A stretch of DNA of 64,000 nucleotides from a virus. The first letter of the stretch is position 1; every line of letters begins with the position of its first letter. The notes under the pieces were generated by a model, which was given only the letters and a program-made list of their open reading frames with translations, was not told the DNA's origin and ran no database searches. Location: the IMG/VR virus record IMGVR_UViG_3300047089_000152, positions 40,151-104,150 of that record; one strand, written 5' to 3'. This document shows, in pieces, positions 3,146 to 60,708 of this stretch. Made by a program: the position numbers and the translations under genes.

Positions 3146-3154
3146 TGGTACGCT
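3146..3154 (+). promoter_or_regulatory. extended -10 promoter upstream of a pentamer mini-array
   Basis: TGGTACGCT, the same motif found before other mini-arrays and leaderless genes. Confidence 0.6.
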
Positions 3155-3169
3155 GTGGGTACAGCAAAC

Positions 3170-3370: not shown

Positions 3371-4036
3371 ATGCCACCACGCAAGACCACCACAGGCGGA
3401 CCAGTCCAGCTCACCAGGCTGGCAGAAGAAGTCGCCCAAATCCACATCGCCGGGGCTACGCCACTTATTATTCATAAATGGTCGGAAAAGGCGCTCAACC
3501 AGATGCGGATCGCCCAGTCCGGGGCAATTAAGCCGCCCCGCGAACCCAAGAACGCCGAAGAAAACGCCCACGCGGCAACATACTGGGTCGACGTCGCCGA
3601 GACGATCCCCGGCATCCCCAGCGTCTCATTCAAGGCCGCCATGGTCGGAGCCTGCCGGTTCTTCGACGGCCTCCCCATGACGACAGCAAAATTGCTGTTC
3701 TTCGTCGACGGGGTCGTCAGCGAAGCCAAGGGCGACGCGCCAGCACGCGACCTGCTCGTCCCGATTATCTCCGGCCCTGGGGAAATGCGGGAAGACACCC
3801 CGCGCAACGACAACGGAAACCCGGACCTCCGGTACAGGAATCAGTTCTTCCCGTGGAAAGCCGTACTCAACGTGCGGTTCATGCCCGCGAAGATCGCCCC
3901 CGAATCCGTCATCGCGCTAGCTGACGCCGCCGGTCGTGGCGGTGTCGGAGAATGGCGTCCATCCGCACCGAAAAGCGCGACTGGCACATACGGCCAGTTT
4001 CGTGTCATCACCCGGAAGGAATGGGAGTCGGCCTAA
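3371..4036 (+). CDS. stand-alone Cas7/RAMP-like protein, putative guide-RNA-binding filament
   Basis: N-terminal strand IAGATPLIIH, GIPSVSFKAAM (cf. RAMP IPxSSxKG helix), C-terminal glycine-rich loop GRGGVGEWRP...GTYGQFRV; flanked by repeat arrays. Confidence 0.7.
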   Translation: MPPRKTTTGGPVQLTRLAEEVAQIHIAGATPLIIHKWSEKALNQMRIAQSGAIKPPREPKNAEENAHAATYWVDVAETIPGIPSVSFKAAMVGACRFFDGLPMTTAKLLFFVDGVVSEAKGDAPARDLLVPIISGPGEMREDTPRNDNGNPDLRYRNQFFPWKAVLNVRFMPAKIAPESVIALADAAGRGGVGEWRPSAPKSATGTYGQFRVITRKEWESA

Positions 4037-4644: not shown

Positions 4645-5923
4645 GGAGTGGAGGGGCAGGGACTGTCGTGGCAAGGAACGGCAGGGCACGGAGTGGATTG
4701 GCAGGATAGGCTCGGCGCGGCCAGGCGGGGAGCGTTTCGGAGTGGCATGGATTGGCTGGGACTGGCAGTATCGGATCGCAGTGGTCAGGGTAGGCAAGGC
4801 CCGGCCAGGCGGGGCTCGGTATGGCCTGCACTGGCGGGGAACGCAATGGAGTGGCAGGACCGGTGTGGAATGGCTGGGACGGGAACGGCGCGGTAGGGAA
4901 TGGAGTGGCAGGAACGGTGGGGCCGGGCGCGGCGCGGCTAGGCTCGGCGCGGACGGGCATGGATTGGCTGGGCAGGACAGGATCGGAGAGCAGGGGGCTG
5001 GCGCGGCATGGCACGGAGAGGCAGGAGAGGAACGGTCGGGACAGGAGCGGCAAGGAGCGCACCGGCAGGCAGCGGCAGGGAATGGCATGGAACGGACTGG
5101 ATTGGCAGGACAGGACCGGCATGGCCAGGAGGGGCATGTCCTGGAATGGAATGGCAGGAATGGCTGGGTACGGCGGGGCCGGGCGAGCATTGGACAGGAC
5201 CGGCAGTCGCGGAAGGGCTCGGCAGGGACCGGATTGCAGCGGCGAGGATGGGCTAGGCAGGAGCGGAACGGCAGGGCATGGCCTGGATCGGAGCGGCTGG
5301 GCAGGATAGGCATGGATCGGCCTGGGTAGGCAAGGAGGGGCTGGGACGGGACCGGATTGGCAGGGCAGCAGTGGAGAGGCAAGCCGTGCAATGGCGGGGC
5401 GGGGCGTGGCATGGACTGGACCGGCAGGACTGGACTGGACTGGATTGGAGAGCAGGGCAGTGGCAGGGATCGTAGGGGTTCGGACGGGCAGGTTAGGCTT
5501 GGACGGGCTAGGCGTGGCATGGGCCGGCAAGGAACGGCTCGGAGCGGCAGGGATTGGCACGGCTCGGAGTGGCAGGACCGGACGGGTACGACGTGGCGTG
5601 GCTGGCATTGGCAAGGACTGGCAGGAGTGGATTGGCAGGGCCGGGCTTGGCATGGCGTGGCTGGGAATGGCGTGGCAGGACAGGTGGGGCTTGGCGGGCC
5701 GGGGATCGGCACGGATGGGCATGGCATGGCCCGGTAGGGCATGGCAGCATTGGACTGGACCGGACCGGCAAGGCTTGGCTTGGCTGGGATCGGATGGGAA
5801 CGGCAGGAGCGGAGCGGACTGTCGTGGCATGGCATGGCCTGGCGTGGCGCGGATCGGACGGGCAGGATAGGTCGGGCGTGGAATGGAACGGACGGGCTGG
5901 GCATGGAACGGCAGGATAGGAGT
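4645..5923 (+). repeat. main GGH-NN pentamer array, about 21 units, putative multi-guide precursor RNA
   Basis: strict 5-nt periodicity; GGCAG+4-nt delimiters at 4700, 4764, 4853, 4907, 4971, 5020, 5104, 5153, 5202, 5256, 5300, 5364, 5423, 5487, 5571, 5620, 5674, 5743, 5802, 5861, 5910; all spacings are 5n+4. Confidence 0.92.
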
Positions 5924-5980: not shown

Positions 5981-6133
5981 ATGATCTTGTGCTCGTGCGG
6001 CCATCCTGCGGTCGAGCATGACCTGAACCGTTCGGAGACTAAGCGAACAGTTTGCCTGACCACCGAACGGACTACGAAATGTCCGTGCGTGCTATATTCA
6101 CCAGACCTTCGTGATACACTAGAGGTACAATGA
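5981..6133 (+). CDS. small Cys/His zinc-binding protein
   Basis: MILCSCGHPAVEH...C...CPC. Confidence 0.55.
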   Translation: MILCSCGHPAVEHDLNRSETKRTVCLTTERTTKCPCVLYSPDLRDTLEVQ

Positions 6134-6999
6134 ACGAGACCATAGAACGAGAAGACCGCAGGGCCGTCACCGCGCTCACCTCCGGGGAAAACGCCACGAA
6201 GGTCACCGTCAAAACAAGCGACGGCAACTACGAAGAACGACAGCTAACCGTCCACGGGCTCGCACGGCTGATTCCCGTGATCGCACTGGGCGACATGGAC
6301 CGGCTGATAGACGACGTGCGCGAACACGGCGTCCTCGAACCCCTGATCATGTTCCAGGGACAAGTCCTTGACGGACGCAACCGGCTCGCCGTAGCTTCGG
6401 TCGTCGGCGTACCCGTGCAGCTCACCGAATTCGACGGAGACGAAGCCGCAGCCAGAAACTTCGTCTGGTCCGCGAACGCTGCGAGGCGGCACCTGTCCGT
6501 CCCCCAGATCGCGCTGGCCGCTGAACGGTTCGGTTTCGTCGACGCCGCCAAAGCCGAAGCAGGCCCCGACGACCCCAACCTGGATATCCGCTCGACGGTC
6601 GCACCATGGGCGCGAATCGCCGCGCGAAAGGTCGGTGCGATCACCCCGGCTACACTGGAACGGTTCCAGCAAGCCAGGATCCCCGAGGCACCCGACACGA
6701 TGCGCCGGGTCGATTCCGGTGAGATCCGCCGGGTCGACGTCGCGGTCAAGGAAGCGGTCGCGGAGCGGACCGTGCTCACCGGCCGTCTCATCCAGGTTCC
6801 ACCCCCGGTTGCGCGTACCGCGTGGGACCGGCTGGGCTGCGCGCGGGGTGACGTTCTCGCCGCGGAACGCGCCATCCTGGCAGGGGACTGGGGTGGGATG
6901 GAAAGGGACCAGTTCGCTGTCCGCGCCCGTGAAATCCAGGGAGCCCTGATCAGGATTCAGAATTTGTATCGTTATGGATCGGGCGGCAGGACCGGTTAG
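6130..6999 (+). CDS. ParB/Srx-like N-terminal domain protein
   Basis: LIDDVREHGVLEPLI...VLDGRNRL...SANAARRHLS. Confidence 0.85.
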   Translation: MNETIEREDRRAVTALTSGENATKVTVKTSDGNYEERQLTVHGLARLIPVIALGDMDRLIDDVREHGVLEPLIMFQGQVLDGRNRLAVASVVGVPVQLTEFDGDEAAARNFVWSANAARRHLSVPQIALAAERFGFVDAAKAEAGPDDPNLDIRSTVAPWARIAARKVGAITPATLERFQQARIPEAPDTMRRVDSGEIRRVDVAVKEAVAERTVLTGRLIQVPPPVARTAWDRLGCARGDVLAAERAILAGDWGGMERDQFAVRAREIQGALIRIQNLYRYGSGGRTG

Positions 7000-7057
7000 G
7001 ACGGGCTAGGAATGGCTGGGCTGGGCATGGACTGGAATGGCAGGAATGGAATGGCTA
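6985..7057 (+). ncRNA. GGH-NN mini-array (1 full unit), putative guide RNA
   Basis: GGCAG-GACC + 9 pentamers + GGCAG-GAAT. Confidence 0.75.
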
Positions 7058-39477: not shown

Positions 39478-40761
39478 TCATCCTGCCGCCATATGTGAGT
39501 CGAAGAAATTATCCTTCGGGCCGATATGGGAACGGAACTTGTACTTACGGATCAATTCCTCGCGGATTCCCACGAGGTCTTCTGAACTGAGTTCCGCCGT
39601 GCGGACCACGGAATCGGTACCCATGTTCTTTTGCCCGTAGGCGCCAAGTCCTTCTCCAGTAAATATCAGGTCGGTAGCTATTCCCTCGTCCATTTCCCGC
39701 CTGAATTCTGTGCCGCGATAAGGATAATAGATAGCAATCTGCGCATCATCTATCCCTGACGTGCAGATGAACCGTTCAGTCTCCGCGATCGTAGCGCGTG
39801 TCTCGCCGGGTAGCCCGATCATCACGAATGCTTTCACGGTGATGCCCGCATCCTTGCAGTACCGGACACAATCGTAATTCTGCGTGGCGGTTGTCTTCTT
39901 ATCCATCCGGTCTAGCATCTGCTGCGACCCGGATTCCGCACCAAACGCCACCTCGACACACCCCGCATCGGCTAGCGCCGCGGCGAACTCCGCGGTCATG
40001 AATTTCGCGTGCACATTGCAGCGAAATCTTAGCCCGGAGCGCTTGAGTAGGTCCAGGTACGGCTGGCACTTCCCCAAATTAATTGCAAAAAGATCATCAT
40101 ACAAATACACGCCCTCATACCCGAGCGTCACGATGTCGTCCAGTTCGGCCTCGGCGTTGCCCAGCGAAGTCCACCTGGTCAGCGTCCGCGCGTCTTCACA
40201 GAACTTGCACGCCATCGGACAGCCCCGGCCGAGCATCATCGTGGTCGAGTTCAGCCCGGCCAGGGTGTACGAGTAGTTTTTCAGGAACCCAGGCTCACCC
40301 AGCCGGTCCGGGCGGGGCATCGCCGCTAGTTCCTGCCGGGGGATCTGGTCGTTGCTCATGACAGGAACCGTTTTGTTCTGCACGATGCCTGGCAGTGCCC
40401 GCTCCCCGTCGCCTGCCACCAGGTAGTCCCACAGCCCGGCCTGGTCGTCTGCGTTCATCTCCCGGCCGTAATGCCGGACGTGCGGGCCGCCTGCCACCAG
40501 AACTTTGGACGGCCAGCGGCTCCTGATCGCGCGGGCTATCCGGTTAGCCTCGGCGCGCTGCGGTGTCATCACCGAGACGCCTACTATGTCAGCGTCCGCG
40601 AACTGGTCCAGATCCTCGACGTCGTATTCGTCTACGACGCTGATCTTAGTACCGGGGGCCTGCGCGGCCACCGCGGATTTCAGGTACAGCAGGCCGAGGG
40701 GCGGGTAGATACGGTCGTCGTCCAGGAACGGGGACCGGCAGGAAACCAGGGACAGTTTCAT
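39478..40761 (-). CDS. cobalamin-binding radical SAM enzyme (class B methyltransferase-like)
   Basis: PPLGLLYL, GGPH, GDGE B12 domain; GRGCPMACKFC; GAESGSQ; IGLPGET. Confidence 0.92.
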   Translation of the reverse strand: MKLSLVSCRSPFLDDDRIYPPLGLLYLKSAVAAQAPGTKISVVDEYDVEDLDQFADADIVGVSVMTPQRAEANRIARAIRSRWPSKVLVAGGPHVRHYGREMNADDQAGLWDYLVAGDGERALPGIVQNKTVPVMSNDQIPRQELAAMPRPDRLGEPGFLKNYSYTLAGLNSTTMMLGRGCPMACKFCEDARTLTRWTSLGNAEAELDDIVTLGYEGVYLYDDLFAINLGKCQPYLDLLKRSGLRFRCNVHAKFMTAEFAAALADAGCVEVAFGAESGSQQMLDRMDKKTTATQNYDCVRYCKDAGITVKAFVMIGLPGETRATIAETERFICTSGIDDAQIAIYYPYRGTEFRREMDEGIATDLIFTGEGLGAYGQKNMGTDSVVRTAELSSEDLVGIREELIRKYKFRSHIGPKDNFFDSHMAAG

Positions 40762-46049: not shown

Positions 46050-46406
46050 TCAGGATTTCCTGGCGGGCCGGGCCTTATTCATAGATTTCGCGGGCTTTTT
46101 AGCCGCGGGCTTAGCCGCAGCAGGCTTCGCTTCGGCAGCAGGCTTCGCGGTCTTCGCGGCAGCTGAATCGCCCTTACCCTGCGAGGATGGCAACTCCGGG
46201 TATTTCCGACGGACCGCTGCCTGAACTTTTGCCTTCTCCGCAGGCGTCCCATTCGCCGCAACTCGTGACAGGGCGTTAGCGCCCCGTGCCTTAGAGTTAA
46301 TAGGGTATGCGTCAGCACCACCAGGACCACCACCAGGCAGCGCATACGACCCAGCCGGCGCGGCAGTATTAGGCGCAGGCTTACCGGTCTTCTTCCTCGG
46401 TGGCAT
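46050..46406 (-). CDS. basic head-region protein with Lys/Pro/Ala-rich tail
   Basis: YALP...YPI...NALSR...VRRKYP, similar to the protease N-terminal extension. Confidence 0.7.
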   Translation of the reverse strand: MPPRKKTGKPAPNTAAPAGSYALPGGGPGGADAYPINSKARGANALSRVAANGTPAEKAKVQAAVRRKYPELPSSQGKGDSAAAKTAKPAAEAKPAAAKPAAKKPAKSMNKARPARKS

Positions 46407-46500: not shown

Positions 46501-46535
46501 TCACTGACCTGCACCTACGCGGTGCAGGTCAGTGA
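46501..46535. terminator. 15-bp hairpin between the mini-array and the portal stop
   Basis: TCACTGACCTGCACC-TACGC-GGTGCAGGTCAGTGA. Confidence 0.8.
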
Positions 46536-48164
46536 TTCCCGTTGTGTCCGTTTGAGCTGGCCTTCGGCGGAATCCACGGCCCGACGAACTCGGGGCCAAG
46601 CGCATCATCACGTTCCGCCTGGCGGACCGCTGCGACAATCTTCGCGAACACTTCCGGGTGGACACTGGAACCATCGCCGCGCACGGACGTGATCTCCTTG
46701 ACGATCTCCTGGAGAACATTCGGCGGGACGAACCCGCCCGCACCCGCAGCACCAGCCGCACCCGCCACGGCAGGCCCGTTCGCGCCCAGAGCACCAGGCA
46801 CGTTTATCCCAGGCGGGGCGTTCCCCGCACCAGGCCCCGACGGCTGACCCGTACCCGGCGGCAACCCCACCGGCTCCTGACCAGCCTGGAGTTCTTGCAG
46901 ATACTCGACCAGCAGCCGCTGTTCCAGGGTGACCTGCGGGAGGAACGAATTCGGGATCGCCCGCGTCGACCGGGCCATCGCGACAATCGCGTCCAGCGGG
47001 ATCGTGTCCTTACCCATCTGCTGCGGCAACGGCTCCAGGTCCTCCGTGTCACGCATCTCATCAATCGACTTGAACCCGATGTCCCGCCACGTCTTGTAAA
47101 TGTTCGCCCGTTCAGCCAGGTCAGCTTTCAGCAGCGCGTCAGTAGCGAACCGGGCGTAACGGTTCGCCGGTAGCAGCTTGAAGAACGCGGTCTCCAGCCG
47201 GACCAGCCACGGGCGCAGCGCCTCGATGATCTGCAACGCACCCTGCTGCACCGTGGAATACGTCAGCGAGTCGCCACGCTTACCACCCACCCGGTCAGGA
47301 GGCAATCCATAAACAGCGGCGAGCTGCGTCGCGTTCATCTGCATCGCCTCAATAAACTGCGCCTCCGACGGCGGAACAGTCACCGGGTGATAATCCCAGT
47401 CACGACCGTATACCAAGGGGGTCCTGTTGCGAATCGACTGGTTCAGTGCGCTGCGGATCTCCGCAGCCTGCGACGGGTCGATCTCGATCTCGTTGTTCTT
47501 GAACGTACCCGGAGGGAACCCGCCGGCCTTGAACCAGTCCGTCCCGAACCGGGTAGCCTCCAGGCCATTCAGGATCGTCAACGCGAACGCGCGCAGCGGA
47601 GAGATACCCTCCGTGCGGCCAGCAAGACTGAATGCCTTGATGTGGAAATATTCGTCGCGCTGCATCAACCGCCCGTAAAAATACACGCGGGACCGAAGCG
47701 GATTGTACGGCTGCGACTCGTCGTCAATGACCGTGATCATCTCCGGGGGCATCCACTGGATCTGCGTCGGATACCCGTACCCGTCACGCCCCAGAATGTA
47801 TCCCCACGCGTTACCGTGCAGCAAAAGCGCGGTCAAGCATTCATAAAGCCAATCCATAAGATTTGTTGACGGGGACGGGTCGTCGAATATCGACGGGCCA
47901 TCCCACTTCTTCTGCCCCGCACCCGGCGTTTTAATGTAAACTTTCAGCGGCAACGACGCGATGTACTCAGCGATCATCCGCACGCACGCGTACAGCGGTG
48001 TCAGTCTTAGCGCCTCGTCGGCCCCGTAAAACGAACGGGACGGATGCGCAGGGCCACCAGCACTGAAGGGAAAGTAAATACGGCGAGTCCCACGGCCTCC
48101 AGGGCACGCCAGAAATAACACGACTCTCAGTTTTACTCGCCAGTACCCGCTCGACCAGACCCAC
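46529..48164 (-). CDS. HK97-family portal protein (apparent frameshift near codon 30)
   Basis: YACVRMIA...SLPL, LLLHGNAW, GISPL, AQFIE, YSTVQQ; natural N-terminus MGLVERV lies in another frame. Confidence 0.9.
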
Positions 48165-48221
48165 CAGATCACCCCCCTTCTTTATCTTGCGTTCCCTGCT
48201 AGATACCCTTATTATTGATTC

Positions 48222-48917
48222 ATGTCACGAACAGCGATAGACCTCACTGGGCAACGCTTCGGGCGTCTGACCGTACTGATACGCGACCGCACACGCCGAG
48301 GAGCTACATACTGGCGCTGCCTCTGTGATTGCGGCAACGAAAAGACCGTCGCTAGTGCTTCGCTACGCCGTAGCGCCACGACAAGCTGCGGCTGCGCCCA
48401 CCGCGAGATGCTGATAGCGCGCAACACCGGGCGCTGGCCCGAGCCGTTCTCAGTCCCTGGATCGCCATCCGCGCCGAAACCAGGATCAGGGCCGAAACCA
48501 AGCGTGCTGCATAAACCGACGTACCACTCCTGGTACGGCGCGGTCCGTCGATGCACCAGACATGACGACCCTGGATGGCCACGATACGGAGGTCGCGGTA
48601 TCACGGTCTGCGAACGCTGGCTCGATTACAAAAACTTCCTGGCCGATATGGGCGAGAGGCCCCCCGACAGGACACTCGACCGGATCAACAACGACGGGGA
48701 CTACGAGCCAGGCAACTGCCGCTGGGCCACGATCCAGCAGCAGTCCCGCAACACAAGCACCTTCAAGCTGACCCCTGCCAAGATCAGAGAGATACTGGAC
48801 CTTAGCAAGGCAGGTCTGGGTCCGGGGCAGATCGCCATACAGACGGACATCAGCTACAGGAATACGCGACTCGTCATCTCGATCGCGGAGGTTGTACGGG
48901 CGGCCTTGGTCGCGTAG
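48222..48917 (+). CDS. HNH homing endonuclease
   Basis: DLTGQRFGRL...CLCDCG; YGGRGITVCERW...TLDRINNDGDYEPGNCRWAT; antisense insertion beside the portal; leaderless (TATTAT + 6 nt). Confidence 0.9.
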   Translation: MSRTAIDLTGQRFGRLTVLIRDRTRRGATYWRCLCDCGNEKTVASASLRRSATTSCGCAHREMLIARNTGRWPEPFSVPGSPSAPKPGSGPKPSVLHKPTYHSWYGAVRRCTRHDDPGWPRYGGRGITVCERWLDYKNFLADMGERPPDRTLDRINNDGDYEPGNCRWATIQQQSRNTSTFKLTPAKIREILDLSKAGLGPGQIAIQTDISYRNTRLVISIAEVVRAALVA

Positions 48918-49120: not shown

Positions 49121-49360
49121 TCAGCCCCGTTCTGGTTGCGGTGCGGGTGTGACGGTCACGTGCGCGCCGACACGGTAGCCGTACCGGACGGCGAGGCAGC
49201 AGAACACTACGCTGCGCCACAGCGAACCCGTCAGCCAGCCGATCGCGAAGAAAAACGCCGTGACCAGCGTGATGATCATCACGCCCGCGCGGACCTGGCT
49301 GGCGTGTTCAGCTATCTGCTCGACGGGTACGGCTGATAGTGGCCGGGTCGCGGTTGCCAT
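49121..49360 (-). CDS. small membrane protein
   Basis: hydrophobic core; RBS GGAGG. Confidence 0.6.
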   Translation of the reverse strand: MATATRPLSAVPVEQIAEHASQVRAGVMIITLVTAFFFAIGWLTGSLWRSVVFCCLAVRYGYRVGAHVTVTPAPQPERG

Positions 49361-49367
49361 GTTCCTC

Positions 49368-50267
49368 CTACAATCCCTTGTCGGTCATCCACGTCTGCGC
49401 GGCCTTGGCTACCTTCGCGTTTCCGCCGATGTGGTGGAGCTGCACCCACGGGTGGAGCAGCGTGGCGAACGCGACGTCGTCGGTGTTGTGACCCGGGACA
49501 GGCACCGGGGGTACCGGGACAGGGACGGGTGCGGGGGCGGTCAACGGCAGGGACACGGTCGCGTCACCCTGTTCGGCTAGCAGCCGTTCCAGTGTCGCGT
49601 AGGAGTAGCAGAATGAGCCGTCGACACCGAACCCTGTGCCCCACGAATTGTCCAGGAACAGGATCTTCTTGTCGACGTCCTTGCCGCGGCACAGATATTC
49701 GTGGCCACCCCGGATCTGCGCGCCAGGGCTGACGGCTACGAGGCCGCTGCTATCGGGTCGGTCCATCGAGTCATACCAATTCGACCCGATGCCTACCGGG
49801 CCTGCTTCCAGCGCGTCGAGGACGTCTGCGAGGGAGAAGCAGTGCAGGTACCCCGAAATCCAGCCCATGTTCTTCGCGACCTGCGCCGCCGACGGCCCCG
49901 ACGAACCATTGTCGTTGGGAGGGTAGGGACCATCCCCGTCGATGGTCTCAGCCCCACTGTAGATCCGCAGCGCCAGCGGCTCATCCAGAGGGATGTGACC
50001 GGCTGGTAGCGCGTCGAACAGGGGTCCCGTGCCGAGCGCACCAACCTGCTCGTTTCCGGTGCAGGACCCGACGTTGCCCTGATCCAGGATGGGGATCTGC
50101 CGGGGCCACAGCTGGGTCGTTAGCCCCGCCGCGGTCCGCTGCCACGGATATGCGCGGTTCCGCTCGTCATGATACAGATTCCGCCCCAAGGGCAGGGGGT
50201 TCTCGGCTGATGCAGCCTGCCAAGGGATGCGGGCACGCTGGGTGGACCATGCGGTCACTACAACCAT
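49368..50267 (-). CDS. papain-like cysteine peptidase (possible endolysin-type)
   Basis: LDQGNVGSCTG, GGHEY, NSWG catalytic motifs. Confidence 0.8.
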   Translation of the reverse strand: MVVVTAWSTQRARIPWQAASAENPLPLGRNLYHDERNRAYPWQRTAAGLTTQLWPRQIPILDQGNVGSCTGNEQVGALGTGPLFDALPAGHIPLDEPLALRIYSGAETIDGDGPYPPNDNGSSGPSAAQVAKNMGWISGYLHCFSLADVLDALEAGPVGIGSNWYDSMDRPDSSGLVAVSPGAQIRGGHEYLCRGKDVDKKILFLDNSWGTGFGVDGSFCYSYATLERLLAEQGDATVSLPLTAPAPVPVPVPPVPVPGHNTDDVAFATLLHPWVQLHHIGGNAKVAKAAQTWMTDKGL

Positions 50268-50279
50268 GAGTCTCCTACG

Positions 50280-50288
50280 TGGTACACT
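50280..50288 (+). promoter_or_regulatory. extended -10 promoter of a mini-array
   Basis: TGGTACACT(GTAGGTAC), identical to positions 8-24. Confidence 0.7.
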
Positions 50289-50303
50289 GTAGGTACAGAA
50301 AGG

Positions 50304-50362
50304 GGATAGGAGCGGCAGGGCTTGGCCTGGAGAGGATCGGCTGGGATTGGATTGGCAGGCTT
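50304..50362 (+). ncRNA. GGH-NN mini-array (1 unit)
   Basis: 10 pentamers + GGCAG-GCTT. Confidence 0.78.
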
Positions 50363-51934
50363 TTAGCCGATAGATCGCAACGGGTTATAGCCTCGCCTCA
50401 GTCTGTTATATGCCCAGTGGGCGATGGTCGCGGAGGTCAGCGCGGTGATGTTTGACGCGCTGTTCTTCCGCGACCATCCTCGCATCCCGTCGCCGATGTC
50501 CCTGGTCTCCGCGCGGGCCACAGCGGACCGCAGATAGGGTGCCTCGTCGGGTCCCAGCTGCCCGAGCTGTTTATCGCGGATCGCGGTGACCATCAGGGTG
50601 AACGCCTGCGCCTCCTCAGCGGAGGTCACCTTCATCAGCTCGATCCCGCGGTTTTCCGCGTCGTCCATCAACGCGGAGGCGGGTGCTGTCTTCGGGATCG
50701 CGATACCCAGAGGCCGCCACTTCTTCCGCAGCTCCATTAGTTTCGGGACGACCCACGCGGTACCGGGCCGGAAGCAGTCCTGGGGTTGTTCCACGATGAC
50801 GATCCCGTCGGAGGGACGCATCCACGCCACGGAGATACACGCGGCGGTCAGGTCTGGTGTCACGTCGACAGCGAAACATACCGGGGTCGCGGTCCCGCCG
50901 AGGATAGACGTTTCGCATGCGTTCCACTGGTCCTCGGAGACGGCCAGCCATCCTTCTTCGTCGGTGGGCCAGTGTCCCGCGCCGAGACGTTCCACGTTGA
51001 ACGCGTCCTCGGGCATGCTATTCAGTTCCCACGCCACATGCTCAGCGGTGATCCGGTAGCCCAGAGCGGGGTTCGCTTTCGCCCAGGACAGCGGGTCGTC
51101 CCGGTCGTCATGCTCGGGGCAGACGATGAACTCGTTGGACCGGCGTCCGGTCCGCTCGTCGCGGGGGCATAGCTCGTTGTGCGGCCGGATCGACCACTCG
51201 AAGTAGGCGAGCCGTTCATCGTCGCCGCGGATACCGCGCCTGCGCACGGATGCTAGCTGGGTGGAGTCAGGGTAGCCAGCCGAGGCAAGGTACCACAGTT
51301 GCGGGTTCGGGACCGCGGACATGGTAGGCATAGAAGCGCCGACCTGGTCGACTGTCAAAATCATCGCCTCGTCCCAGACCAGGCAGTTACACGTAAACGA
51401 ACGGCCTGAACCACGGGACCGGGCGAGGAACCGGAGCCGGGGCGCGACTGTCTTGCGGATCAGTTTCGCGCGGGACCCGAAGATCAGCGCGGGGGAGGGT
51501 CGTAGCAGGACCGCTTCCTCACCGTGTGAGGTGATCACCGATTTGATCCGGCGGGACAGTTCCTCGGAGTTACTGATCCGGTCTTTCAACCGGAGGAAAT
51601 GCTCGTTGGACGCCTTGAATTCGTGGGCCGTGTGAATGATCAACGGCTCCGATAGCTCGAACAGGCCGAATAGTTCCCGGCCCTCCACGATGGCGTTTTT
51701 CCCGTTCTGCCGGGATAGTACCTCGGCGACTTCTTTCGCCGCCCATGTCCCGTTCGGTCGGGTGCCGAGCGCGTTTTCCAGTGACCAAGCCTGCCACGGG
51801 TCCCACTCGAAACCGACCGATTCGCAGAACTCGACGCACTCCAGCCCCGTCTGGTTCGAGGCGCTGACGGGCAGTGAGGAGATCCTTGGTTCCTGCACCC
51901 CGTACAGTTCGTCGGGTAGCGCGGGCATTGCCAC
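50363..51934 (-). CDS. terminase large subunit
   Basis: SRQNGKN Walker A, HTAH, WDEA Walker B, ANPALG, FAVDV nuclease motif. Confidence 0.95.
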   Translation of the reverse strand: MAMPALPDELYGVQEPRISSLPVSASNQTGLECVEFCESVGFEWDPWQAWSLENALGTRPNGTWAAKEVAEVLSRQNGKNAIVEGRELFGLFELSEPLIIHTAHEFKASNEHFLRLKDRISNSEELSRRIKSVITSHGEEAVLLRPSPALIFGSRAKLIRKTVAPRLRFLARSRGSGRSFTCNCLVWDEAMILTVDQVGASMPTMSAVPNPQLWYLASAGYPDSTQLASVRRRGIRGDDERLAYFEWSIRPHNELCPRDERTGRRSNEFIVCPEHDDRDDPLSWAKANPALGYRITAEHVAWELNSMPEDAFNVERLGAGHWPTDEEGWLAVSEDQWNACETSILGGTATPVCFAVDVTPDLTAACISVAWMRPSDGIVIVEQPQDCFRPGTAWVVPKLMELRKKWRPLGIAIPKTAPASALMDDAENRGIELMKVTSAEEAQAFTLMVTAIRDKQLGQLGPDEAPYLRSAVARAETRDIGDGMRGWSRKNSASNITALTSATIAHWAYNRLRRGYNPLRSIG

Positions 51935-52230: not shown

Positions 52231-52381
52231 GCCCCTCCCCCGGTCTCCGGTGATACACTGTAGGTAACGGCGAGTGGTGCACGCCCCTACCAGGTGCACG
52301 AATGTGAGACTCATAGAAGGGCGCTGGCAACCCTGGACCTCGCCAGAAACCAGCACTTATTCGCTGGTAAAGGAGTGTGCG

Positions 52382-56669: not shown

Positions 56670-56743
56670 TAGCGGAGACGGGATTTGAACCCGTGTCCCA
56701 GGATTATGAGCCCTGGATGGTGACCGAACTCCAACACTCCGCA
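56670..56743 (-). tRNA. tRNA-Met(CAT), initiator-like; no encoded CCA
   Basis: cloverleaf: acceptor GCGGAG/CTCCGC with U1:U72 mismatch, anticodon arm CAGGG-CTCATAA-TCCTG, T arm ACGGG-TTCAAAT-CCCGT; TACAGT -10 box upstream. Confidence 0.9.
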
Positions 56744-60544: not shown

Positions 60545-60567
60545 GACACCCGTGGTACACTAAGGGT

Positions 60568-60708
60568 ATGACATGCCTTAAATGTTCGTGTGGTAAGACG
60601 ATCACCCGCCGCGAGAACAAGCTGAACGCCGGGCTGTGTAACAAATGCTTCGAGCAGGCGCTAAGAGTCACGGCCCGGGAAGTCGCGAAGCGGCTGGGTA
60701 AGAAGTGA
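60568..60708 (+). CDS. 46-aa zinc-finger protein; leaderless
   Basis: TGGTACACT + 6 nt + ATG; CSCG...CNKC. Confidence 0.6.
   Translation: MTCLKCSCGKTITRRENKLNAGLCNKCFEQALRVTAREVAKRLGKK

What the first reader, a model, noticed from the sequence alone, without database searches (positions are those of the whole stretch)
50148..50362. Mini-array at 50304 matches the adjacent cysteine peptidase gene, more weakly
Guide NN: ta gc ag tt ct ga tc tg tt tt. Positions 50148-50177 read as xNN: ta gc cg tt cg tc tc tg ta ag (5/10 exact, 3 half matches). The guide decodes to H-D-S-R-N-L-A-Y against self H-D-E-R-N-R-A-Y. One mismatch is a synonymous Arg switch (AGN versus CGN), one of the few silent changes (Arg, Leu or Ser) able to escape a wobble-skipping code.
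Basis: partly seen in the sequence, partly recalled or inferred. Interest (0 to 1): 0.72.

Follow-up and report, generated by a model that had tools for sequence, protein, structure and literature searches.

The report
Lone VIPR guide beside resistant peptidase
A 55-base five-letter repeat between the terminase and peptidase genes of this soil phage is a stand-alone guide-RNA gene of the recently described VIPR silencing system; its code spells a conserved peptidase motif as rival phages carry it, while the phage's own copy has a unique change there, so it looks like a weapon kept next to its own antidote.

Summary
At 50304-50358 (+) there are 11 GG[A/C]NN pentamers. Read by the one-base-skip rule, they match 50148-50177, codons 31-40 of the peptidase gene, at 5/10 dinucleotides (13/20 bases).

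On its own this match is at chance level: 17 sites in the 104-kb genome score 13/20.
- **System.** The repeat type is the guide RNA (vrRNA) of VIPR systems (2026 preprints). The phage encodes a Vipr-family RAMP at 3371-4036.
- **Non-self alleles.** Relatives' peptidase alleles fit the guide better than the phage's own. HDSRNLAY alleles reach 16/20.
- **Predicted allele found.** The AGR-Arg allele exists in IMG/VR contig L035, where 8 consecutive units match exactly (16/16). No shuffled guide out of 1000 exceeded 14/16.
- **Conditional null.** Given a chance 13/20 self match, the probability that any relative's allele reaches 16/20 or more is 0.006.
- **Own copy.** Among 79 family columns that are at least 95% conserved, the phage's peptidase deviates at only one, Ser35 to Glu, inside the footprint.
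- **Replicate.** Relative L012 has the homologous cassette at the same junction with a different guide. That guide fits the other phages' peptidase at 25/28 and its own at 20/28.

Best reading: a solo vrRNA aimed at rival alleles, linked to a resistant allele.

The scan has noted this layout before, both in this genome and in other genomes. Expression and silencing are untested, and the last two guide units match no known allele.

The parts
50280..50296 (+). Promoter-like motif TGGTACACTGTAGGTAC (extended -10: TGG + TACACT) just upstream of the array
   Evidence: The motif TGGTACRCTNNRGGTAC has 20 copies in the window against 4.3 expected (0 of 100 shuffles reach 20). Almost all copies are on the + strand at starts of + strand units, including 3146 in front of the vipr locus and an exact copy at 8-24. 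The generic sigma-70 scan finds nothing here because there is no -35 element. Promoter function is inferred.
50304..50358 (+). Solo vrRNA array: 10 guide units GG[A/C]NN (50304-50353) plus a terminal GGCAG (50354-50358). It is antisense to the late operon. The GGCAGG end lies 4 nt before the TerL stop codon (50363-50365).
   Evidence: All 32 such arrays in the genome lie on the + strand. The GGCAG|G ending is the same as at the 1-nt-overlap boundaries of the 1.27-kb array.
50148..50177 (-). The phage's own near-target: peptidase codons 31-40 (LYHDERNRAY), 13/20 to the guide (12/16 for the 8-unit core, codons 33-40)
   Evidence: Glu35 (GAG) replaces an otherwise near-invariant Ser. Arg38 (CGC) stands where about half the family has Leu.
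49368..50267 (-). Papain-like cysteine peptidase gene (299 aa), the gene whose non-self alleles the guide fits
   Evidence: PHROG 16701 'peptidase', E 2e-42. PDB 3ois cysteine protease, E 2.4e-6. No Pfam hit.
49906..49946 (-). Site in this phage's peptidase (TIDGDGPYPPNDNG) that the solo guide of relative L012 matches at 25/28
50363..51934 (-). Terminase large subunit gene; its stop codon lies 4 nt after the array's 3' end
   Evidence: PHROG 9, E 4e-60; junction alignment.
3371..4036 (+). vipr gene (RAMP protein that would load the guide), 46 kb from the solo array
   Evidence: A profile of 36 homologs hits only PDB 36pp 'SUSP1 Vipr protein', E 6.5e-6. The AF2 model has pLDDT 86.7. Its Foldseek top hits are all Cas7-type RAMPs (Csm3, Cmr4, Cas7-11), E about 1e-5.
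4645..5914 (+). Main staggered vrRNA array of the same system (context)

Best explanation
50304-50358 is a stand-alone (solo) guide-RNA gene of the phage's own VIPR system.

Inferred steps:
1. It is transcribed on the + strand from the phage's recurrent extended -10 promoter at 50280-50288, antisense between the terminase and peptidase genes.
2. The RNA is cut or ended at GGCAG|G, as in the main staggered array.
3. Vipr protomers (gene at 3371-4036) coat the RNA, one per GG[A/C] unit.
4. The exposed NN pairs read double-stranded DNA by the published rule of two paired bases and one skipped base, with the skipped base on the codon wobble.
5. In a cell shared with a rival phage, the complex would sit on codons 33-40 of the rival's peptidase gene. 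It would block transcription of that gene and of the late genes downstream (portal and so on).
6. The phage's own copy would be spared.
7. Close linkage would keep the guide and the resistant allele together.

Shown here:
- The guide spells H-D-S-R-N-L-A-Y, the conserved 'D-x-R' region near the N-terminus of the papain-like peptidase, as most related phages encode it. The match is 16/16 in L035, 15/16 in L018/L020/L021 and 14/16 in the 75%-identity relatives.
- The phage's own copy reads H-D-E-R-N-R-A-Y, scoring 12/16, or 13/20 over all ten units. That is below the 0.8 identity used in the VIPR papers.
For: - **Repeat grammar and system.** 11 GG[A/C]NN units ending in GGCAG, on the same strand and with the same grammar as the 31 other + strand arrays in the genome. 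A Vipr-family RAMP is present. The rule and the solo vrRNAs are published.
- **Non-self fits better than self.** In 29 IMG/VR relatives the guide's best hit in the locus is usually the homologous peptidase site, at 14-16/20 against 13/20 for self.
- **Predicted allele found.**
- **Shuffled-guide null.** 2.2% of shuffles reach 16/20 or more anywhere in 172 kb of relatives. For the 8-unit core, none of 1000 exceeds 14/16, while the real guide reaches 16/16 and 15/16.
- **Conditional null, which accounts for homology.** Given a chance 13/20 on self, P(any of the 14 distinct alleles reaches 16 or more) = 0.006. P(8 or more of 14 score above self) = 0.002.
- **Own allele is singular.** Of 116 homologs, 113 have Ser35 and only this phage has Glu. 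Of 79 columns that are at least 95% conserved, self deviates only at position 35.
- **Independent replicate.** L012 has the homologous antisense cassette at the same TerL|peptidase junction, carrying a different 14-unit guide. That guide matches the peptidase of nearly all relatives, including this window, at 25/28, and its own copy at 20/28.
- **Empty site.** L013 and L014 have only 10 nt between TerL and the peptidase gene, so the cassette is an insertion.
- **Same layout for the phage's other solos.** Their unique genome-wide best hits lie next door: 18/20 at 6949, 20/24 at 40076, 16/20 at 46354.
- **A plausible rival exists.** The near-complete relative G005 (119 kb) has no Vipr and no arrays. 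Its only site at 15/20 or more is the peptidase site.
Against: - The self match alone is at chance level, with 17 equal sites in the genome.
- The best non-self scores only just reach the 0.80 literature threshold over 10 units. They fall to 0.73 if the terminal GGCAG unit is counted.
- The two 3' units (TT TT) match no allele whose DNA could be read. GGATT units do pair in other solos of this phage, so they cannot be dismissed as filler.
- There is no terminator or conserved tail after the array.
- The third scaffold base is A or C, not the pyrimidine of the studied systems.
- L035 was found by searching for the pattern, so its 16/16 is partly selected. The 15/16 alleles were not selected this way.
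- There is no expression, loading or silencing data, and the mismatch tolerance of this VIPR type is unknown.
Confidence: 0.72

Rival explanations
1. Decayed or orphaned guide. It is a genuine vrRNA cassette that once matched a peptidase allele. It has since drifted (TT TT units, no tail) and no longer silences anything, or its true full-length target is unsampled.
For: The last two units match no known allele. The exact 10-unit pattern finds only an unrelated 32%-GC marine contig and nothing in genomes. It is the weakest self match among the phage's solo guides for which a neighbouring match was found.
Against: The array keeps perfect GG phasing over 11 units, the exact promoter motif and the GGCAGG end. 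Eight contiguous units are exact on a real allele. Protein-level alleles with N before H (P0222, P0223) exist and would raise the match to 17-18/20, though their DNA could not be read.
Confidence: 0.14
2. Self-regulation. The partial match (13/20) to the phage's own peptidase gene, or simple antisense transcription across the TerL-peptidase junction, tunes expression of the phage's own late operon.
For: The guide is adjacent and antisense to its own gene. Another solo (6989) matches its own neighbour at 18/20, so self-binding is not excluded in this phage.
Against: The self score is no better than 16 other sites in the genome. Relatives' alleles match better than self, the opposite of what a self-regulator needs. 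The published surveys found no self-targets at 0.8 or above.
Confidence: 0.07
3. Chance resemblance. The array is a VIPR guide, but its real target is an unrelated element (host, satellite or another phage), and the peptidase match is coincidental.
For: 13/20 on self is chance level. An unrelated GC-rich contig (L056) also reaches 16/20 through the other eight units.
Against: The shuffled and conditional nulls argue against it. The match is at the homologous site, in frame and on the wobble register, in many relatives. L012's guide at the same locus also targets the same gene. L056 shares no homology with this phage.
Confidence: 0.05

Closest known systems
Solo (orphan) vrRNAs of VIPR systems in SUSP1-family phages and F5 satellites (bioRxiv 10.64898/2026.10.15.759431)
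   Same: It is a stand-alone pentamer guide more than 20 kb from any vipr gene. It is wobble-aligned to a coding target in a conserved enzyme motif. The self-match is lower than the match to relatives, which the paper reads as avoiding autoimmunity.
   Different: - The phage here is VIPR-positive.
- The guide sits antisense inside the late operon, directly beside the phage's own diverged copy of the target gene. That linkage is not mentioned in the paper.
- The target is a structural-module peptidase, not vipr, vrRNAs, satellites or REP decoys.
- There is no 40-nt conserved tail.
VIPR systems with staggered vrRNA arrays (bioRxiv 10.64898/2026.04.26.720920, fig. S18; structures in 10.64898/2026.04.26.720927)
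   Same: Five-base units with fixed GG and variable NN. vrRNAs abut with a 1-nt overlap (GGCAG|G). A small Vipr RAMP is encoded with a partner gene. The target code is the 1-nt skip rule.
   Different: The third scaffold base is A or C rather than a pyrimidine. The host range is high-GC soil-type. None of this type has been tested experimentally.
CRISPR mini-arrays and self-sparing spacers in phages and other mobile elements (established knowledge)
   Same: A mobile element carries a guide against competitors and escapes its own guide through target mismatches.
   Different: There is no repeat-spacer structure, no adaptation genes and no PAM. The code is gapped, and the guide lies next to the homologous self gene.
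Free-standing homing endonucleases beside the resistant allele they protect (established knowledge)
   Same: A weapon against the neighbouring gene's foreign alleles is kept in tight linkage with an immune allele, at a variable gene junction.
   Different: The predicted action is RNA-guided binding and silencing, not cleavage and gene conversion. No evidence of drive was obtained here.

Membership tests
VIPR vrRNA (family level) | Tandem 5-nt units with a fixed trinucleotide (GGY or a related consensus) alternating with a hypervariable NN, 9-16 units | tested here: met
   11 in-phase units with invariant GG, third base A (6) or C (5), and varied NN. The paper allows 'a related consensus', and non-canonical trinucleotides are reported.
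VIPR vrRNA (family level) | A cognate Vipr RAMP protein is available | tested here: met
   The profile for window 3371-4036 hits only SUSP1 Vipr (36pp), E 6.5e-6. The AF2 model (pLDDT 86.7) matches Cas7-type RAMPs.
VIPR vrRNA (family level) | A natural target matches the NN string by the 1-nt skip rule at 0.8 or above, with the skip on the wobble | tested here: met
   16/20 = 0.80 in L018, L020, L021 and L035, in frame with the wobble skipped. The 8-unit core is 16/16 in L035. The threshold is only just met.
VIPR vrRNA (family level) | No self-target at 0.8 or above | tested here: met
   The maximum in the phage's own 104-kb genome is 13/20 = 0.65.
VIPR vrRNA (family level) | The RNA is expressed, bound by Vipr, and silences its target | not testable with these tools
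   Only a promoter-like motif and sequence inference are available.
Solo vrRNA as defined in 10.64898/2026.10.15.759431 | [quoted passage not shown] | tested here: met
   The only Vipr homolog examined is at 3371-4036, 46 kb from the array. The definition was read.
Type II (SUSP1 / P. fulva) VIPR | GGY scaffold and a conserved 3' tail or pseudoknot after the repeats | tested here: not met
   The third base is A in 6 of 11 units. There is no conserved tail or stable fold downstream (z = -1.5). The array ends at GGCAGG, 4 nt before the TerL stop. It is therefore not filed as type II.
Staggered-array VIPR type | vrRNA ends are defined by 1-nt overlapping unit boundaries | tested here: inconclusive
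   The solo ends in the same GGCAG|G as the internal boundaries of the 4645-5914 array. Processing cannot be seen from sequence.

The most novel reading that the evidence does not exclude
Solo VIPR guides are maintained as linked 'poison-antidote' modules. Each is inserted at a gene junction next to the phage's own resistant allele of the gene it silences in rivals. Recombinants that inherit the guide therefore also inherit immunity, giving an RNA-guided form of marker exclusion or allele drive. The homologous cassette in L012 carries an entirely different guide against another motif of the same gene. This would further imply that guides at a fixed locus are renewed against the neighbouring gene, possibly by a still unknown local guide-writing process.
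Probability: 0.3. Interest if true: 0.85.

Novelty: new variant of a known kind. Interest (0 to 1): 0.56.

Why it matters
VIPR was described only in 2026, in enterobacterial and Pseudomonas phages. There, solo guides attack rival VIPR loci, satellites or decoys. This case adds several things:
- It extends solo guides to a high-GC soil phage with an A/C scaffold.
- It shows a correct in-silico prediction of a target allele from the gapped code alone.
- It adds an independent replicate (L012) of a layout not found in the solo-vrRNA paper searched for it: the guide sits beside the phage's own altered copy of the target.

If real, this layout explains how a phage avoids shooting itself. It shows that conserved enzyme motifs are the chosen targets. 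It also suggests that six-fold-degenerate codons (Ser TCN/AGY, Arg CGN/AGR) are the only silent escape routes. Finally, it gives a simple genomic signature for finding targets and self-immunity mutations of RNA-guided inter-phage warfare.

Tried and rejected
- **TRAP-like idea.** My first idea was a TRAP-like protein-binding repeat (11 triplets spaced by 2 nt) or a G-quadruplex tract. I dropped it once the VIPR papers were read and the RAMP gene was verified.
- **Rfam.** Nothing at this locus; the only hit in the window is a tRNA at 56670-56743.
- **GenBank phages.** blastn of the region gave no match.
- **GGATT as filler.** I tested whether the unmatched TT TT units are non-reading filler. 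This was rejected, because GGATT units pair with the neighbour target in the 39356 and 46426 solos.
- **Exact 10-unit target.** The metagenome scan gave one chance hit in a 32%-GC marine contig. The genome collection gave none.
- **3'-anchored 8-unit pattern.** 20 IMG/VR hits, none in a peptidase. One is GC-rich but unrelated (L056).
- **N-H-D-S-R-N-L-A-Y pattern in IMG/VR.** None found.
- **Main-array guides.** They show no clear hits in relatives G005 or G001.
- **RNA fold downstream of the array.** Uninformative, z = -1.5.
- The codons of the closest relatives (P0122-P0128) and of the HVNHDSRNLAY alleles (P0222, P0223) could not be read.
- **Unrun script.** It was redone from the stored files.

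Full report
**What is there**

The window is positions 40151-104150 of a 104,150-bp IMG/VR virus record. It is high-GC and carries a late operon on the minus strand:
- terminase large subunit, 50363..51934
- a papain-like cysteine peptidase, 49368..50267
- a small membrane protein
- portal, 46529..48172

The 95-nt gap between the terminase and peptidase genes holds, on the plus strand, 11 in-phase pentamers GG[A/C]NN at 50304-50358, ending in GGCAG. Reading 50148-50177 as xNN gives 5 exact and 3 half matches out of 10, or 13/20 bases. The skipped base falls on the wobble of peptidase codons 31-40, LYHDERNRAY.

**What kind of thing it is**

The genome has 32 such arrays on the plus strand and one short run on the minus strand. 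They include a 1.27-kb block at 4645-5914, where arrays abut through a one-base overlap, GGCAG|G.

My first idea was a TRAP-like protein-binding repeat. Notes from this scan pointed to the VIPR system, and I checked that in the sources. The key paper is bioRxiv 10.64898/2026.04.26.720920. It describes:
- phage-borne Vipr RAMP proteins
- vrRNAs made of GGY/NN pentamers, whose NN pairs read double-stranded DNA while skipping one base
- the skipped base lying mostly on the codon wobble
- 'staggered' arrays with 1-nt overlaps

The structural paper shows one protomer per repeat. A third preprint describes solo vrRNAs, an identity score with a 0.8 threshold, and shuffled-guide nulls.

I also tested the protein. 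A 36-sequence profile of the gene at 3371-4036 hits a single PDB sequence, 'SUSP1 Vipr protein', at E 6.5e-6. Its AlphaFold model has pLDDT 86.7 and matches only Cas7-type RAMPs, at E about 1e-5. So the phage has a VIPR system. The array at 50304 lies 46 kb from vipr, which makes it 'solo' by the published definition.

Just upstream, at 50280-50296, lies an exact copy of the phage's recurrent motif TGGTACRCTNNRGGTAC:
- It has 20 copies against 4.3 expected, nearly all on the plus strand.
- One copy stands in front of the vipr locus.
- It contains an extended -10 element.

Promoter function is inferred. No terminator or conserved tail follows the array. It ends at GGCAGG, 4 nt before the terminase stop codon.

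**Is the peptidase match real?**

Taken alone, it is not: 13/20 is the genome-wide maximum but is shared by 17 sites. I therefore fetched 29 IMG/VR loci encoding peptidase relatives. In most of them the guide's best hit in the whole locus is the homologous site, and it scores higher than in the phage itself:

| Allele | Where | Score |
|---|---|---|
| NVYHDSRNRAY | 75%-identity relatives | 15/20 |
| NVYHDSRNLAY | L018, L020, L021 | 16/20 |
| LYHDERNRAY | this phage (self) | 13/20 |

A pattern scan of IMG/VR for the eight-unit core returned nine stretches. One of them is a 64%-identical peptidase homolog, L035. It reads GRNVLHDSRNLAYPW with Arg = AGG, so eight consecutive guide units are exact.

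Three nulls support a real relation:
- **Shuffled guides against 172 kb of relatives.** They reach 16/20 or more in 2.2% of trials. For the eight-unit core they never exceed 14/16 in 1000 trials. The real guide reaches 16/16, and also 15/16 in alleles that were not found by pattern search.
- **A null that respects homology.** Given a chance 13/20 on self at this site, the probability that any of the 14 distinct alleles reaches 16 or more is 0.006.
- **Alleles beating self.** The probability that eight or more of the 14 alleles score above self is 0.002.

**The phage's own allele**

A search of the 5.8-billion-protein collection gave 116 homologs with a clear site:
- 113 have Ser where this phage has Glu35, and no other has Glu.
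- HDSRNLAY is the commonest motif and is the one carried by the closest relatives, at 78-82% identity.
- In an alignment of 115 sequences, 79 columns are at least 95% conserved. The phage deviates at exactly one of them, position 35.
- The second difference, Arg38 for Leu, is a common polymorphism.
- Among IMG/VR alleles, the Ser codon is TCN in 18 and AGC in 7. Arg is CGN in all except L035.

**An independent replicate**

One relative, L012, has a cassette at the same junction. It shares the promoter-like flank and the antisense orientation, and its GGCAGG directly abuts the terminase stop. Its guide is entirely different, with 14 informative units. That guide decodes to T-N-D-G-D-G-P-Y-P-P-N-D-A-G.

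It matches the peptidase of nearly every relative at 25/28, including this window at 49906-49946. It matches L012's own copy (MIDGGAGYPPEDEG) at only 20/28.

The same junction varies among the other relatives:
- L013 and L014 have an empty junction of 10 nt.
- L008-L011 have a gap of about 265 nt that appears to hold a small ORF.
- L004, L005, L007 and L017 have about 2.1 kb of inserted DNA.

The cassette is therefore an insertion at a variable spot.

Within this phage, three other solo guides have their unique genome-wide best hit next door: 18/20 at 6949, 20/24 at 40076 and 16/20 at 46354. The 97%-complete relative G005 (TerL 83% identical) has no Vipr and no arrays. Its only site scoring 15/20 or more is the peptidase site.

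**Mechanism proposed**

Shown:
- the repeat grammar and the presence of a Vipr gene
- the promoter-like motif
- the better fit to non-self alleles
- the singular self substitution
- the replicate in L012

Inferred:
- The RNA is made early and loaded by Vipr.
- The filament binds codons 33-40 of rival peptidase genes and blocks transcription of the rival's late operon.
- The phage's own Glu35/Arg38 allele is spared.
- Linkage keeps the guide and the immune allele together.

**Weak points**
- The 10-unit score only just reaches 0.80.
- The two 3' units (TT TT) match no allele with readable DNA, and GGATT units are not filler.
- Alleles with Asn before His exist at the protein level (P0222, P0223).
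- An unrelated GC-rich contig also reaches 16/20 through the other end of the guide.

**Comparison and novelty**

The element is a VIPR vrRNA of the staggered-array kind and a solo by the published definition. It is not type II, having an A/C third base and no tail. Self-match below non-self match is published for vrRNA-targeting solos. Placement directly beside the phage's own diverged copy of the target gene is not mentioned in the solo-vrRNA paper I searched for it. This scan has already noted the same layout for other solos of this genome and in at least four other genomes, so this instance is a further and weaker example. What it adds is a confirmed allele prediction and an orthologous, retargeted cassette.

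Noticed in passing
window 6949-6977 (-) and 6989-7043 (+): The solo guide at 6989 matches its own genome at 18/20 (0.90) only 40 nt upstream of itself. That is above the 0.8 threshold the VIPR papers use for targets, so it is a possible self-target or autoregulatory site.
   Followed up: partly
window 49906-49946 (-); L012:2859-2933 (-): The solo guide of relative L012 matches this phage's peptidase (TIDGDGPYPPNDNG) at 25/28. This phage is therefore itself a predicted target of an L012-type rival.
   Followed up: yes
TerL|peptidase junction: window 50268-50362; L013:2975-3012; L008-L011; L004/L005/L007/L017: The junction is a variable cargo spot. It is empty (10 nt) in L013/L014. It holds a gap of about 265 nt, apparently with a small ORF, in L008-L011. 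It holds about 2.1 kb of extra DNA with apparent genes in L004-type contigs. It holds vrRNA cassettes here and in L012.
   Followed up: partly
window, 20 sites, e.g. 8-24, 3146-3162, 6112-6128, 50280-50296, 52251-52267, 60553-60569: The recurrent plus-strand motif TGGTACRCTNNRGGTAC (20 copies against 4.3 expected) looks like the phage's own extended -10 promoter class for plus-strand (non-structural) units and for solo guides.
   Followed up: partly
window 48222-48917 (+): An HNH endonuclease gene (PHROG 374, E 2e-62) lies on the opposite strand inside the minus-strand late operon, between the peptidase/small membrane protein genes and portal.
   Followed up: no
window 49121-49360 (-): A 79-aa protein with a hydrophobic stretch directly follows the peptidase gene and is conserved in G005 (62% identity). 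Together they could be a lysis pair (peptidase plus holin-like protein). This was not tested.
   Followed up: no
L015, L016, L022, L023, L026, L027 against other relatives, at the codon aligned to self codon 35: The invariant Ser is encoded by TCN in 18 alleles and by AGC in 7. This silent codon-family switch removes two guide matches. It could be escape from such guides or neutral drift.
   Followed up: partly
window 56670-56743 (-): A tRNA gene, the only Rfam hit in the window.
   Followed up: no
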